DNA of 63,253 bases from sequence record AP012531; one strand, given 5' to 3'. Numbering within the stretch: the stretch's first letter is position 1; each line of letters starts with the position of its first letter. The position numbers were made by a program. The DNA comes from Stx2-converting phage Stx2a_F422. Below are positions 9,001-15,000 of the stretch, piece by piece.

Positions 9001-12000
9001 TGAACCGCCCCGGAAATCCTGGAGACTAAACTCCCTGAGAAAGAGGTAAACAGGATGACTAAAAATACTCGTTTTTCCCCCGAAGTCCGTCAGCGGGCGA
9101 TTCGTATGGTTCTGGAAAGTCAGGATGAATATGACTCACAGTGGGCGGCAATTTGTTCCATTGCCCCAAAGATTGGCTGTACGCCGGAGACTCTGCGTGT
9201 CTGGGTTCGCCAGCATGAGCGGGATACCGGGGGCGGTGATGGTGGGCTCACCAGCGCTGAACGTCAGCGTCTGAAAGAGCTGGAACGTGAAAATCGTGAA
9301 CTGCGCCGCAGTAACGATATCCTTCGCCAGGCTTCCGCTTATTTTGCGAAGGCGGAGTTCGACCGCCTCTGGAAAAAATGATGCCACTGCTGGATAAGCT
9401 GCGTGAGCAGTACGGGGTCGGACCGGTATGCAGCGAACTGCATATTGCCCCGTCAACGTATTACCATTGTCAGCAACAGCGACATCATCCGGATAAACGC
9501 AGTGCCCGTGCGCAGCACGACGACTGGCTGAAGAGAGAGATACAGCGCGTATACGATGAAAATCATCAGGTGTACGGTGTGCGTAAAGTCTGGCGTCAGT
9601 TGTTACGGGAAGGAATCAGGGTGGCCAGATGTACAGTGGCACGTCTCATGGCGGTTATGGGACTTGCCGGTGTTCTCCGGGGTAAAAAGGTCCGTACGAC
9701 CATCAGCCGGAAAGCCGTTGCCGCAGGCGACCGCGTAAACCGTCAGTTCGTGGCAGAACGACCTGACCAGCTGTGGGTGGCTGATTTTACTTACGTCAGC
9801 ACATGGCAGGGCTTCGTCTATGTGGCGTTTATCATTGATGTGTTTGCCGGATACATCGTGGGGTGGCGGGTCTCATCGTCTATGGAAACGACATTCGTGC
9901 TGGATGCGCTGGAGCAGGCGTTGTGGGCCCGTCGTCCGTCTGGCACCATCCATCACAGCGATAAAGGCTCTCAGTATGTGTCACTAGCCTATACGGAGCG
10001 ACTAAAAGAAGCCGGATTACTGGCATCAACAGGGAGTACAGGCGACTCGTATGACAACGCGATGGCTGAGAGCATCAATGGTCTTTACAAAGCGGAGGTA
10101 ATACACCGTAAGAGCTGGAAAAACCGTGCAGAAGTGGAACTGGCCACACTAACGTGGGTGGACTGGTATAACAATCGACGATTGCTGGGAAGGCTGGGCC
10201 ATACTCCTCCGGCAGAAGCAGAAAAAGCTTATTATGCTTCCATCGGAAACGATGATCTGGCAGCCTGAGTTCACAGATAAAACACTCTCCAGGAAACCCG
10301 GGGCGGTTCATTTTGTCATATCTCACCTCAAATAAGTGGTTTGCTGCCTAATTTCATTTTCTGGCGACCAACACAAGTCACCTCGCCGTCAGTTGTTTTG
10401 ATTTCCGGTAGCCTGCCGCGTAAATGGCTACGTTTGGAAGACATACACCAGTTTCTGGTTGCTTATGTCCAAACTCATTCGCGTACACAATGGCCGCTCG
10501 CTCCAGATTGCGTCTGTATTCTTTCTGTTGCCAGATCACGTCCTGTGCCATGAACTTAATTGGCTTAGCGTCTTCTATGCGCTCAGGCGTTTCGTGAGTA
10601 CCTTTAGCCTGAATCTGCGCTCTGCTTAGAGTAGGGCGGTGTAATACTTCTGAACTTATTGCTTCTTCGCGGGCCAGTACGCCGTTAGCTAATGCCTTTG
10701 CCTTTAAACGCTCACGACGACGAGAACGTGAATTGCCTTTGAACTGAGTTCTGCGTGTCATATAGACCTCCTGATGAACTTTGGTGGTGTGGTAGGTGGG
10801 AGACCCATTTCGACCTGTTTCGGCCTACTTCAATTCGGCAATAGTCCCGCAGGCCTCGCCGCTTTACGTGCGACATATTCCCGTCCATGAACCCTTCACC
10901 ACACCCCAAAGTTCACTTTGGTTATTGCGCTTTGTCAGCGCCGTAGATTCATATTCGAATCGTTGTATATTCACCGCCCTGGTGAGTAATGCGTCCTGCT
11001 GACGACGATAATAATGAACCAATAGTTCGACATTATCAAGAACTATTGGTACGAATTTTGGTGATTTATTAACTCTACGAAGTATGATTCTGATATATAA
11101 GGAAATTTATTTTTGAAAATGTGGCTGATGAAGGTTATGCGGCAGGGATCATAACTGCATGGTTTAGCGAGTTACATCAATAAATACAATTGGTTATGTT
11201 TTTTAGGTGGGCGAACGTGAGGCAAAGAAAACCCGGCGCTGAGGCCGGGCTAGATTTTAAAGTATTTATCTTTTAGAGATGTAGATGTAAAACTTTTCGC
11301 CTTTGAAAATTTTTTGTCATCAGAAGGGCTTATGAACTCATCTTTTTTGTAGGGAACCGCTAATGCTGCATCACGTCTGCGAGGCAGCTTGCTTACTTCC
11401 TCGCGCTTTTTCATGATCAGTTATCCTTTAATAACCTATACAGTTTTGTAGGGGTACATCCTGAGGATATTGTTAAGTTCGTAGCACGCCTTTTCCGCCC
11501 ATCATCGTATAAACGAAAACCAGTAGTAGACGAATTTTCTGCGTCAAAAACTATAGACAGTATAGCGTCCCCAGACTTTTTTTGCCATTCGCATGTGCCG
11601 TTAGTTGGTTTCGTCATCTGTAGACGCCAGTCAAGAACGCCATCACTTATAGCTGAGAGATCGTTTAGTACATCTAGTACGGATTGATATCTTTCATTTG
11701 GATCTACATGAATGCATTTGTTCACTATTGTTATTAATTTTTTATGTATATGGGGAGGATACTCTTTTAATGGATAGCAGCCATTAATTATCGACTCTCT
11801 GAGTTGTTCAATCGTGCTAAATGCAGATCTTTCTCTTTCAAAATTATCATGTCCAACACACATTCTATATATGGTTAATCCTGCCTGATATATGTCATAT
11901 GTGAAATTATAATCATTTGTTGATAAAGAAAAATATTCCGGTGGCACATGAAAATGATATCCAAACTCAGGCGCAGCTCTCGATTCCTCATTGACTAACT

Positions 12001-15000
12001 GAGATAATCCAAAGTCAGATAGCATGGCCTCATTTCTGTTTGATATCATAATGTTATTAGGTTTTATATCAAAATGCATAAGACCTTTTGAGTGTATATG
12101 ATAAAGTCCACTTAAAAATTGAATGGAATACCGTATTATCTCCCTGCTTGTAAGATTATTTTTTTTCATTAATTGGTTTAGCGAACCATTATGATAAAAT
12201 GGCATGGCTATATAGATATTGCTCTCACATTGAGCAGCATACTGAACTTGCACAATATTTGGATGTGCATGTTTATAGAGAAGCCTTGCTTCATTAAAGT
12301 AGTCGTCGTGGTTAGTGTTTTCTTTTTTTTCTATTTCTTTAATCACCAAGTCATGAGCTAGGTGTCTGTCATGAGCCAGATATACTTTTGAAAAACAACC
12401 CTGTTCTTCTAGATCACTAATCCATTCGAATTCTACATCAGCTCTTTTGTATGGAGTTAGCATCCCCTTACCTCCGCAGATAGTGCAGCCAAAACAGCTT
12501 CATTTGTTTCAGTTGTAAAACCAGAATTATCGATTCCATTTATATTGCGGTGTGACTTCAATATTTCTTTATACTCGATCTCTGTTAGGTTCAATGATGA
12601 TTTCATGCCAGATTTTCTAATAGTGTAATATTTTCTTACATCACTGCTTGAAAATGCTTCTTGAATAACAGCTTCTATATAAAGGCGGTCAATGCTAAGA
12701 TTATCAGAGTTTGATTCAGTAACGCGTATGGCAGCTAATTCAACATTATATAAATTAAGAATGTCGAGGATGTTATTTCTCACATACTTTAATTTTTCTG
12801 GTGTGTCTAAGGTCGAAGGTATTTTAATAACATCAACACATTTGAGTGCAGACTCATTAGTGCAATATACAACAAAAGATGTAACTTTGGGCGCCGCTCT
12901 AACACCTAGTATTCTCATTTTTTATATCCTATTTTAGAATCAGGCCGCATCTCTGCGACCATCCATCATCCAAACGTCTCTTCACTCATCCGAAGAAGCA
13001 GCAATCCGGGTTAGCACGCACAAGCTCAAGCGCATCAGTCAGCGAAAGTTCAGTACTGTACTGATGCCATTTCATATCCTTCCGCATCCAATAGATTTTC
13101 CATCTATCCAGAGAACGTATGTACTTGATTCTTGCTGATGGCAGGATGTTTGTTTCACCTGGATTGCCCTGCCACACGGGGCGCTGTTCGCCGATATCTA
13201 TCGTTTGGTCATTGATGCTATAAACAATATCCAGTTCATTGCGGATATGTTCAGGCGGCCTTATGCTTTCAATGAATTGGTGAACTTCTTTTTTTACTGC
13301 TTGATATTCAAGGTCATTGAACGCCATCTATCCTCCTTACCCAAACGTCTCTTCAGGCCACTGGTTACCAGCTATGTGACGATGAAGTCACGAACTTTTC
13401 AGCCACTCCCTTGCCTCGATGTCATCCAGATGGCGAGATTGCTTCAGAATACCAGCTACATACTCCACCTTTGCTACTTGATGATAAGGCAACGTTATAG
13501 GCCTGTGATCCTGGTTAATGCTTGTAAATTGGTATTCTCCATCTCTGTCATAGCCAAGAACCTTAATCATGTTGTGTCCTTCAACGGTTCTGACAAACAC
13601 CTCATCACCCGGGAATACTTTGGTGTTAGGCTCAATGAGTACATATTCTCCTGATTTTATTCTGGGCCACATGCTGTCTCCTTTCACACGAAGACCAAAG
13701 GCATCTGGATCATCGCTATAAATTTTGAGCCACCCATCGCGCTCTTCGGTCATCTCGATGGCACCATCAACACCAAGAATTGCCTCACCAACCACGCGCA
13801 CTAACCCTTTTTTTAATTTGCCAACAAATGAAAGAGTATCTTCATCATTCGCTCCATTTAACGAAGTGCCGTGCTGAAGCCAAACAACATCAACGTTTAG
13901 AAATTTCGCAAGCGCATTCATTTTTTCCTGACGCGGTAAAGACTCAGCATTAAACCATTTGCTAACGCCTTTGGACGAAAGAGAAAGGGCACGGGCTATA
14001 GCCATTCCCCTACCATGTTCATCAAGACCAGCTTCTTTACAGGCTTGCGCTAGCCGCTGGGCGAATTCTTTGCGCACTTTTTCATTCTGAACCATGAGTA
14101 CGATACTAAAGCACTTGCAAAAACTTTCAGTTCAACCATAATACGTACTGAAAGTACGAAAAAGGATATTCCTATGCAAAATCTTGATGAGCCGATTAAA
14201 GGTGTCGGCATCCCTGAAGTTGCGAAGGCTTGTGGAGTTAGCGAAAGGGCTGTCTATAAGTGGCTCAAAAACGGCTTCCTCCCTAAGACTGAGTTTTTTG
14301 GGAAAACTAAATACGCATCAAAAATCGAAGAGATTTCTGGTGGCAAATATCAAGCAAGCGAAATGCTTGAAATAAGCAAAAAGAACCTTCTGGCTGCATA
14401 AGTAACACCGCTATTTTCACAATGGACATTCGTCCTACGTCGCTGACAAAGCGAGTCCCAATATATCTGACCAACTAAGGCCATATGCGTTTCCACGCAT
14501 ACCTTTCAACTAGCTATTCACTATTGGAAATCTTAAGAAATGGAACAAACAAGTTACAGCAAACTATCACAGCGAGAAATTGATCGCGCTGAAACTGATT
14601 TACTCATCAACCTGTCAACGCTTACCCAGCGCGGTCTGGCAAAGATGATTGGCTGTCATGAATCGAAGATAAGCAGAACAGACTGGAGGTTTATAGCTTC
14701 GGTCTTGTGTGCTTTTGGCATGGCATCAGACATCAGTCCGATTAGCAGAGCTTTTAAGTATGCGCTTGATGAAATCACAAAGAAAAAATCCCCGGTGGCC
14801 GCCGGGGACTCTAAGCAAATTGATATGCAATTCTGAGGGAATTACTGGATCAATCCACAGGAGTCATTATGACAAATACAGCAAAAATACTCAACTTCGG
14901 CAGAGGTAACTTTGCCGAACAGGAGCGTAATGTGGCAGATCTCGATGATGGTTACGCCAGACTATCAAATATGCTGATTGAGGCTTATTCAGGCGCAGAT

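What the first reader, a model, noticed from the sequence alone, without database searches (positions are those of the whole stretch)
10927..14454. Matched boxB-like hairpins at the expected nutL and nutR positions
GCGCUGACAAAGCGC lies about 165 nt upstream of N on the leftward transcript and UCGCUGACAAAGCGA lies downstream of cro. Both have a 5-bp stem, the same GACAA loop and a shared CTACG flank. No lambda-type boxA (CGCTCTTA) was seen, so N specificity probably differs from lambda.
Basis: partly seen in the sequence, partly recalled or inferred. Interest (0 to 1): 0.4.

Follow-up and report, generated by a model that had tools for sequence, protein, structure and literature searches.

The report
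Known nutL/nutR sites of phage 933W

Summary
GCGCUGACAAAGCGC lies at 10927-10941 (- strand), 166 nt upstream of N. UCGCUGACAAAGCGA lies at 14440-14454 (+ strand), 38 nt after the cro stop. Both follow CUACG; the pattern has 2 matches against 0 expected.

Window 10310-15000 is 100% identical to phage 933W (AF125520). That record annotates nutL and nutR with outer limits equal to the finding's coordinates. The cro-cII spacer is 138/138 identical to phage H-19B. Published oligos against H-19B nutR boxA, spacer and boxB match the window exactly. In that work N plus NusA/NusG protect the spacer and boxB, and the site supports N-dependent antitermination.

The nutL boxB is identical to the P22 boxB solved with the P22 N peptide (PDB 1A4T). 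About 300 related loci keep the layout of boxA-like sequence, small spacer hairpin, CUACG and boxB, with compensatory stem changes. The boxB loop type tracks the N arginine-rich motif.

The boxA remark needs correcting. NutR has CGCUAUUUU, a boxA with the C5A change that in lambda greatly reduces NusB-NusE binding. NutL has no convincing boxA. N specificity does differ from lambda, but because of the boxB loop and the arginine-rich motif, not boxA.

Verdict: already known, low interest.

The parts
10927..10993 (-). nutL as annotated in the 933W GenBank record ('nutL; putative N-utilization leftward')
   Evidence: AF125520 9614-9680 plus an offset of 1313. One base differs from H-19B, C to T at the fifth base of the annotated site.
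10927..10941 (-). nutL boxB hairpin GCGCU-GACAA-AGCGC
   Evidence: Identical 15/15 to the P22 boxB in PDB 1A4T. Invariant in all 84 copies found among the window, 933W, H-19B, HK97 and the 80 IMG/VR loci whose N is at least 98% identical.
10942..10946 (-). CUACG linker directly 5' of the nutL boxB
   Evidence: Invariant in all 18 aligned nut sites of the family.
10946..10961 (-). nutL spacer hairpin GAUUC-gaauau-GAAUC
   Evidence: Predicted in the MFE fold. In relatives the loop varies while the stem is kept, or the stem is replaced by GUCGA/UCGAC.
10962..10975 (-). Position that holds boxA in relatives' nutL; here degenerate (GGUGAAUAUACAAC)
   Evidence: VT2-Sakai has GGCUCUUUAAACAACG and L095 has UGUUCUUUACACAACG at this position. 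The GenBank record instead starts nutL at CGCAUUACU (10985-10993).
11011..11039 (-). Candidate pL promoter (TTGATA-17-CATTAT)
   Evidence: Consensus scan only. The sequence after it (UCAGCAGGACGCA) is shared with the start of the lambda and HK97 pL leaders.
10378..10761 (-). N gene (127 aa) with N-terminal arginine-rich motif GNSRSRRRERLKAKA
   Evidence: Pfam PF25694 N_peptide, E 2e-15. Three of 127 residues differ from H-19B N, none in the motif.
14115..14142 (+). pR promoter
   Evidence: Annotated in AF125520; also found by the consensus scan, TTGCAA-16-CATAAT.
14409..14454 (+). nutR as annotated in the 933W GenBank record
   Evidence: AF125520 13096-13141 plus an offset of 1313. Identical to H-19B.
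14409..14417 (+). nutR boxA-like CGCUAUUUU (carries C5A relative to CGCUCUUUA)
   Evidence: Lies within oligo RS662, 'antisense to nutR boxA of H-19B'. Close relatives with the same N have CGCUCUUUU or CACUCUUUU. In lambda, C5A greatly reduces NusB-NusE binding.
14424..14435 (+). nutR spacer hairpin GGAC-auuc-GUCC
   Evidence: [quoted passage not shown] Relatives have GGCC/GGCC and GGGC/GUCC variants.
14435..14439 (+). CUACG linker directly 5' of the nutR boxB
14440..14454 (+). nutR boxB hairpin UCGCU-GACAA-AGCGA
   Evidence: Lies within oligo RS664, 'antisense to nutR boxB' of H-19B. Differs from the nutL boxB only by a compensatory G-C to U-A change at the base of the stem.
14455..14539 (+). 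Region downstream of nutR up to cII, corresponding to the H-19B tR1 Rho-dependent terminator region
   Evidence: The cro-stop to cII-start stretch is 138/138 identical to H-19B. The H-19B nutR/tR1 cassette is used as a Rho-dependent terminator that overlaps the nut site.

Best explanation
These are the nutL and nutR sites of a 933W/H-19B-type lambdoid Shiga-toxin prophage. After the pL and pR promoters fire, each nascent transcript forms a boxB hairpin with a 5-bp stem and a GACAA loop. The N-terminal arginine-rich motif of the phage N protein (GNSRSRRRERLKAKA) binds this hairpin. NusA binds the adjacent spacer. The tethered N-NusA(-NusG) complex then modifies RNA polymerase so that it reads through downstream terminators: tR1 immediately after nutR, and further terminators in both early operons. 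A small hairpin in the spacer brings the conserved CAAYG and CUACG segments next to each other. BoxA is degenerate (C5A in nutR, unrecognisable in nutL), so NusB-S10 loading probably contributes little. Shown: the sequence identity, the positions, conservation with compensatory changes, and the published footprinting and antitermination with the identical H-19B nutR. Inferred: that nutL works the same way in this prophage, the role of the spacer hairpin, and NusB-S10 independence.
For: Window 10310-15000 is 100% identical to 933W. The 933W record annotates nutL and nutR at exactly these places. NutR plus tR1 is 138/138 identical to H-19B, and N differs from H-19B N at 3 of 127 residues, outside the arginine-rich motif. 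[quoted passage not shown] With those oligos, N+NusA/NusG protected the spacer and boxB but not boxA, and the H-19B nutR site supports N-dependent readthrough in vivo and in vitro. N belongs to Pfam N_peptide. The nutL boxB equals the P22 boxB of PDB 1A4T. Across 8 distinct boxB stems of the family, 39 of 40 stem positions pair; only 1 of 10,000 shuffles of the 3' arms among the sites reaches that count. Compensatory changes occur at stem positions 1-3, and the two loop-proximal pairs are conserved. Over about 300 loci the nutL loop type tracks the N arginine-rich motif class without exception. The loop reads GACAA on the transcribed strand in both divergent operons.
Against: No experiment was done on this exact prophage. 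I could not read the primary H-19B nut papers (Neely & Friedman 1998, 2000). BoxA dispensability and NusB/S10 independence therefore rest on my recollection of the abstract, the title cited, and the absence of boxA protection. pL is only a consensus match plus homology of the leader. Rfam has no nut family, so there is no independent model hit.
Confidence: 0.95

Rival explanations
1. The nutR hairpin region serves mainly as part of the Rho-loading (rut) site of terminator tR1, and N binding is secondary.
For: In H-19B the nutR and tR1 rut sites overlap. Rho alone protects the spacer, and the cassette acts as a Rho-dependent terminator.
Against: This does not exclude the nut function. The same study shows N+NusA/NusG protecting spacer and boxB, and co-occupancy with Rho. 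NutL has the same boxB, and that paper states that nutL has no overlapping Rho-dependent terminator. BoxB loop type tracks the N arginine-rich motif, which Rho loading would not require.
Confidence: 0.25
2. NutL has a second role as an operator for N translational autoregulation, acting with the long stem that encloses the N leader, as described for lambda (N bound at nutL represses N translation; RNase III cleavage of the leader relieves it).
For: A stem of about 20 bp joins the sequence just 3' of the nutL boxB to the sequence just 5' of the N Shine-Dalgarno. Six of its pairs show compensatory double changes in relatives, and the interior varies in length. The whole pL leader folds with z = -4.6.
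Against: The analogy with lambda rests on my own knowledge. No RNase III site or translational effect was tested. This would add to antitermination, not replace it.
Confidence: 0.3
3. The two hairpins are chance or DNA-level palindromes, such as protein-binding sites on DNA, with no RNA function.
For: The 13-nt core with up to 2 mismatches is not enriched over shuffles.
Against: The exact 18-specified-base pattern occurs twice against 0 expected. Pairing is kept through G-U wobbles (SPN9CC nutR U-G; the L019 spacer G-U), which only make sense in RNA. The loop is asymmetric and reads GACAA on the sense strand of each divergent operon. There is published RNA footprinting on the identical sequence.
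Confidence: 0.01

Closest known systems
Phage H-19B nutL/nutR with H-19B N (Neely & Friedman 1998, 2000; Sen laboratory studies PMC3526286, PMC4499122, PMC1950744)
   Same: NutR and the whole cro-cII spacer are identical (138/138). NutL differs at one base, upstream of the spacer hairpin. N is 124/127 identical with the same arginine-rich motif. The layout is the same: boxA-like sequence, spacer hairpin, CUACG, boxB with a GACAA loop.
   Different: The immunity region is different (933W-type cI, cro and operators, plus stk), so pL and pR themselves differ. An IS1203/IS629 element sits downstream of N in this prophage.
Phage 933W nutL/nutR as annotated in GenBank AF125520
   Same: 100% identical sequence over window 10310-15000. 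The annotated outer limits of nutL and nutR coincide with the finding's start and end.
   Different: None within the finding. 933W lacks the IS insertion downstream of N.
Salmonella phage P22 nutL boxB with P22 N (gene 24) peptide, PDB 1A4T
   Same: The boxB 15-mer GCGCUGACAAAGCGC is identical to the window's nutL boxB. Both N proteins match the same Pfam family and share the C-terminal VALYAAG.RKSKQ.TAR. The arginine-rich motifs share GN..(T/S)RR.ER.
   Different: P22 has a canonical boxA (CGCUCUUUA) and a short unstructured spacer ending in AUGAU, with no spacer hairpin and no CUACG. The arginine-rich motifs are identical at only 7 of 20 positions. The P22 nutR boxB is CCGCC-GACAA-CGCGG.
Phage lambda nutL/nutR with lambda N
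   Same: Same genomic positions (pL-nutL-N; cro-nutR-tR1-cII). Same boxB stem length, with the two loop-proximal pairs C-G and U-A. The start of the pL leader is shared.
   Different: The lambda loop is GAAGA/GAAAA and the stem is GCCCU/AGGGC. Lambda has a functional boxA (CGCUCUUA) and no spacer hairpin. Its N is 26% identical in the alignment.
VT2-Sakai, g341c and epsilon34-type nut sites
   Same: Same CAAYG, spacer hairpin, CUACG, boxB layout. The nutR spacer hairpin is identical.
   Different: BoxB has a GAAA tetraloop instead of the GACAA pentaloop. It is paired with a different arginine-rich motif class, G(S/T)(A/S)A(A/S/G)RRR(E/A)RRA.LQ.

Membership tests
Lambdoid N-utilisation (nut) site | Lies on the early leftward and rightward transcripts: between pL and N, and between cro and the first rightward terminator/cII | tested here: met
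   The nutL boxB is 166 nt upstream of N and downstream of a candidate pL. The nutR boxB is 38 nt after cro and 85 nt before cII. The gene order matches the 933W annotation.
Lambdoid N-utilisation (nut) site | BoxB: a short hairpin with a purine-rich GNRA-like loop on the sense strand of each operon | tested here: met
   5-bp stems with a GACAA loop. Compensatory stem changes between nutL and nutR and across relatives: 39 of 40 stem positions pair, reached by 1 of 10,000 shuffles.
Lambdoid N-utilisation (nut) site | BoxA (CGCUCUUUA-like) 5' of boxB, for NusB-S10 | tested here: inconclusive
   NutR has CGCUAUUUU, which carries the C5A change that in lambda greatly reduces NusB-NusE binding. NutL has no convincing boxA. 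BoxA was not protected in the H-19B complex.
Lambdoid N-utilisation (nut) site | [quoted passage not shown] | tested here: met
   Pfam PF25694 N_peptide, E 2e-15. The motif is GNSRSRRRERLKAKA. Motif class and loop type co-vary over about 300 loci.
Lambdoid N-utilisation (nut) site | N-dependent terminator readthrough that requires the site | not testable with these tools
   Published for the identical H-19B nutR sequence, using lacZ reporters and in vitro transcription. Identity to the window was checked.
P22-type boxB (GACAA pentaloop bound by the N peptide as in PDB 1A4T) | BoxB sequence GCGCUGACAAAGCGC | tested here: met
   The nutL boxB is identical 15/15. The nutR boxB differs only in the stem-base pair.
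P22-type boxB (GACAA pentaloop bound by the N peptide as in PDB 1A4T) | Same peptide-RNA binding mode (contacts of the P22 arginine-rich motif) | not testable with these tools
   The motifs share only 7 of 20 positions. No PDB sequence relative of the window's N was found.
Lambda-type nut (boxB GAAAA/GAAGA, boxA CGCUCUUA) | Lambda boxB loop and lambda boxA sequence | tested here: not met
   The loop is GACAA. No CGCTCTTA with up to 1 mismatch lies in either nut region.

The most novel reading that the evidence does not exclude
The most novel reading that the evidence allows concerns the family, not this window. Nut sites of the H-19B, VT2-Sakai and epsilon34 group share an invariant CAAYG, spacer hairpin, CUACG module. 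That module may be a dedicated NusA (or other host-factor) platform that substitutes for boxA and NusB-S10. Within the same module, the boxB loop switches between a GACAA/GUCAA pentaloop and a true GAAA tetraloop, in step with the N arginine-rich motif class. This would define specificity classes that, as far as I could find, have not been described systematically.
Probability: 0.2. Interest if true: 0.35.

Novelty: already known. Interest (0 to 1): 0.08.

Why it matters
N antitermination at these sites is needed for full early gene expression of 933W/H-19B-type Stx phages. In the lambdoid cascade (general knowledge, not tested here) that early expression leads on to Q and to Shiga-toxin production on induction. 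The sites are therefore biologically important, but they have been annotated since the 933W genome record (AF125520) and have served as a model nut site for about two decades. The finding adds nothing new. Its value is as a correct landmark for annotating this prophage.

Tried and rejected
An Rfam scan of 10000-15500 at E up to 10 gave only spurious snoRNA and leader hits; Rfam has no nut/boxB family. A PDB sequence search with N found nothing meaningful; the solved N chains are short peptides and did not match. The primary papers could not be read: Neely & Friedman 1998 and 2000, and my guessed PMC id for the 933W genome paper (Plunkett et al. 1999). The search for related loci with an alignment that included lambda N failed for lack of a conserved stretch. 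The first viral scan returned only N proteins at least 98% identical, so I ran three further scans seeded with g341c, VT2-Sakai and P22 N. The species-representative genome scan gave only 11 loci. MAFFT put the pentaloop/tetraloop length difference at the 3' end rather than in the loop, so I counted pairs with a script on hand-parsed arms instead of using count of structure pairs. A third GACAA hairpin inside gene O (15689-15703) lacks the CUACG flank and appears among 19 relaxed hairpin hits in the window, so I set it aside as chance. The 933W repressor paper did not give the operator sequences in its text, so pL rests on a consensus scan and leader homology.
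Full report
**Observation**

- On the - strand, GCGCTGACAAAGCGC occupies 10927-10941. Its 3' end is 166 nt upstream of the ATG of a 127-aa ORF (10378-10761, -).
- On the + strand, TCGCTGACAAAGCGA occupies 14440-14454. It lies 38 nt after the stop of a 75-aa cro-like ORF and 85 nt before a cII-like ORF.
- Each folds alone into a 5-bp stem with a GACAA loop: -8.5 and -6.6 kcal/mol, z -3.5 and -2.7.
- The shared CTACG flank is real. CTACGNCGCTGACAAAGCG occurs exactly twice, once per strand, against none in 100 shuffles.
- The two copies differ only at the pair at the base of the stem, G-C versus U-A, which is a compensatory change.
- No CGCTCTTA with up to 1 mismatch lies in either region.

**Identity of the region**

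- Window 10310-15000 is 100% identical to Shiga-toxin phage 933W (AF125520 8997-13687) and to several other Stx phages.
- The 933W record annotates 'nutL; putative N-utilization leftward' at 9614-9680 and 'nutR' at 13096-13141. These map to window 10927-10993 and 14409-14454. The finding's start and end coincide with the outer limits of these two features.
- The ORF downstream of nutL is annotated as N and matches Pfam PF25694 (N_peptide) at E 2e-15.
- The surrounding genes are the 933W immunity region: tM terminator, L0081, stk, L0083, L0084, cI, oR/pRM/pR, cro, cII, O and P.

**Experimental status**

- Phage H-19B (AF034975) has an identical nutR. Its nutL differs at one base, upstream of the spacer hairpin.
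- The whole cro-stop to cII-start spacer is 138/138 identical to H-19B. N differs at 3 of 127 residues, none in the arginine-rich motif.
[quoted passage not shown] Their complements tile window 14397-14480 without a mismatch.
- That paper reports two hairpins in nutR. N plus NusA/NusG protected the spacer and boxB but not boxA. Rho alone bound the spacer, N and Rho co-occupied the site, and readthrough of the overlapping tR1 terminator was N-dependent.
- The same H-19B nutR cassette is used for N-dependent antitermination in PMC4499122. In PMC1950744 the nutR/tR1 cassette serves as a Rho-dependent terminator reporter.
- The function of this exact nutR sequence is therefore published. [quoted passage not shown] I could not open that paper or the 1998 one.

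**Anatomy**

- NutR reads CGCUAUUUU (boxA-like, 14409-14417), then CACAAU, then the hairpin GGAC-auuc-GUCC (14424-14435, whose last C is also the first base of CUACG), then CUACG (14435-14439), then boxB (14440-14454).
- NutL, on the - strand, reads a leader UCAGCAGGACGCAUUACUCACC that is shared with the start of the lambda and HK97 pL leaders. Next comes a small hairpin CACC-agggc-GGUG, then AAUAUACAAC, then the hairpin GAUUC-gaauau-GAAUC (10946-10961, overlapping CUACG in the same way), then CUACG (10942-10946), then boxB.
- A sigma-70-like TTGATA-17-CATTAT at 11039-11011 (-) is the candidate pL. The annotated pR at 14115-14142 was also recovered by the scan.

**BoxA**

The nutR element CGCUAUUUU is the consensus CGCUCUUU(A) with C5 changed to A.
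- For lambda, PMC3177189 states that the boxA changes G2U, C5A and U6G inhibit N antitermination and greatly reduce NusB-NusE affinity.
- Among the loci recovered with an N at least 98% identical, together with the window and the reference phages, the nutR boxA is CGCUAUUUU in 49 copies, CGCUCUUUU in 28 and CACUCUUUU in 2. BoxB never varies in these loci.
- At the nutL position where relatives carry boxA (VT2-Sakai GGCUCUUUAAACAACG; L095 UGUUCUUUACACAACG), this phage has GGUGAAUAUACAACG.
- The natural inactivating change, the free variation and the lack of boxA protection in the footprint all fit a boxA that is dispensable. This agrees with the 'reduced requirement for host factors' in the H-19B title. 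My recollection of that abstract (own knowledge) is that NusB and S10 are not required.

**Conservation and covariation**

- I collected N homologues and their flanks from reference phages: HK97, SPN9CC, g341c, SI8, VT2-Sakai, P22 and lambda. I added four IMG/VR scans and one genome scan.
- The module CAAYG, spacer hairpin, CUACG, boxB is shared by all members except P22 and lambda. CAA.G and CUACG are invariant in 18 distinct sites.
- BoxB stems include GCGCU/AGCGC, UCGCU/AGCGA, CGGCU/AGCCG, UGGCU/AGCCA, AGGCU/AGCCU, UAGCU/AGCUA, UCGCU/GGCGA and GCUCC/CGAGC.
- Over these 8 distinct stems, 39 of 40 stem positions pair. Only 1 of 10,000 shuffles of the 3' arms among the sites reaches that count. 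Position 1 shows four pair types, position 2 shows three and position 3 shows two. The two loop-proximal pairs are essentially fixed as C-G and U-A.
- Spacer hairpins also co-vary: GGAC/GUCC, GGCC/GGCC and GGGC/GUCC in nutR, and GAUUC/GAAUC and GUCGA/UCGAC in nutL. Their loops are free to vary.
It also fits the published idea, as I recall it, that the spacer stem brings the flanking segments together.

**Specificity**

- The nutL boxB is identical 15/15 to the P22 boxB-left RNA solved with the P22 N peptide in PDB 1A4T. P22's own nutL carries it behind a canonical boxA and an unstructured spacer.
- The 933W arginine-rich motif (GNSRSRRRERLKAKALANG) resembles that of P22 (GNAKTRRHERRRKLAIERD) at 7 of 20 positions. 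It differs from lambda's.
- Across about 300 loci, the motif class predicts the nutL loop in every locus whose upstream sequence is present:

| N arginine-rich motif | nutL boxB loop |
|---|---|
| GNSRSRRRERLK(A/V)KA (933W/H-19B type) | GACAA (108 of 109 loci; the remaining contig lacks the upstream region) |
| GNAKTRRHERRRKLA (P22 type) | GACAA |
| GTSRARRRERLKAKA (SPN9CC type) | GUCAA, closed by C·C |
| GSA(A/S)GRRRERRAALQ (g341c type) | GAAA tetraloop |
| GT(A/S)ASRRRARRANLQ (VT2-Sakai type) | GAAA tetraloop |

The determinant is the boxB loop and the arginine-rich motif, not boxA.

**Mechanism**

- Shown: the sequence, position, structure and covariation here, plus the published footprints and readthrough for the identical nutR.
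- Inferred: boxB forms on the nascent pL and pR transcripts. N binds it through its arginine-rich motif. NusA engages the spacer. The complex stays tethered to RNA polymerase and suppresses tR1 and later terminators.
- NutR also overlaps the Rho-loading site of tR1, so N and Rho meet on the same RNA.
- NutL is assumed to work in the same way.

**Rivals**

- A primary role in Rho loading is compatible with the nut role rather than an alternative to it.
- A second role of nutL in N translational autoregulation is plausible. A stem of about 20 bp with six compensatory pairs encloses the N leader, running from just after boxB to just before the Shine-Dalgarno.
- Chance or a DNA-level palindrome is excluded by the G-U-tolerant covariation, the strand asymmetry and the RNA footprints.

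**Verdict**

However, the element is already annotated in 933W and functionally characterised in H-19B, so interest is low. The only mildly new material concerns relatives (tetraloop versus pentaloop boxB classes, and the invariant CAAYG/CUACG module) and is listed under things noticed in passing.

Noticed in passing
window about 10770-10794 (-) and 10897-10921 (-): A long-range stem of about 20 bp encloses the N leader. It runs from just 3' of the nutL boxB (AGUGAACUUUGGGGUGUGGUG) to just 5' of the N Shine-Dalgarno (CACCACACCACCAAAGUUCAU). The interior varies from about 60 to 140 nt among relatives, and six pairs show compensatory double changes. The whole pL leader folds with z = -4.6. It resembles the lambda N-leader RNase III stem (own knowledge).
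   Followed up: partly
window about 9000-10310 (orfA 9055-9381, orfB 9378-10268, + strand): An IS3-family element (annotated IS1203; about 1.3 kb) is inserted in the 933W gene L0079, just downstream of N in the pL operon. It is absent from 933W AF125520. The same arrangement is 100% identical in E. coli O157:H7 strain F7349. The rest of the pL operon therefore lies beyond an IS and would depend on N-modified readthrough.
   Followed up: partly
L006 5879-5897 and 3538-3556; L008 5885-5903 and 3206-3224; L092, L093, L095; many IMG/VR loci (L102-L259): Relatives whose N arginine-rich motif reads GSA(A/S)GRRRERRAALQ or GT(A/S)ASRRRARRANLQ (g341c/epsilon34-like, VT2-Sakai-like) keep the CAAYG, hairpin, CUACG module. 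Their boxB, however, has a GAAA tetraloop instead of a pentaloop. Motif class predicted loop type in every one of about 300 surveyed loci that had upstream sequence.
   Followed up: partly
L005 (Salmonella phage SPN9CC) 5879-5897 (+) and 3191-3209 (-): SPN9CC and six IMG/VR relatives (N 86% identical, motif GTSRARRRERLKAKA) have a nutL boxB GCUCC-GUCAA-CGAGC, with loop GUCAA closed by a C·C apposition as in P22 nutR. In SPN9CC itself the nutR boxB is UCGCU-GACAA-GGCGA, closed by U·G. So the two nut sites of one phage differ in loop sequence.
   Followed up: no
window 14409-14417 and the homologous position in L011-L090: There is a natural polymorphism at boxA position 5 of nutR among phages with essentially the same N. 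It is A (as here, in 933W and in H-19B) or C (HK97 and many IMG/VR contigs), and some copies have CACUCUUUU. BoxB is invariant throughout. In lambda, C5A greatly reduces NusB-NusE binding.
   Followed up: partly
window 15689-15703 (+), inside gene O: A third 5-bp hairpin with a GACAA loop (UCCGC-GACAA-GUGGA, with one G·U pair) is also present in H-19B. It has no CUACG flank and is one of 19 hits in a relaxed hairpin scan of the window, so it is probably chance.
   Followed up: no
window 10971-10983 (-): A small hairpin, CACC-agggc-GGUG, lies early in the pL leader. It is conserved in position in lambda (CACC-augaa-GGUG) and in relatives (CACC-aggau-GGUG, CACC-aggac-GGUG), with the loop varying. 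Its function is unknown to me.
   Followed up: no
window 11230-11251: A bidirectional terminator-like hairpin (AGCCCGGCCUCAGCGCCGGGUU followed by a U run on the - strand) matches tM, the terminator annotated in 933W for the cI-stk maintenance transcript. It lies just upstream of the pL region.
   Followed up: no
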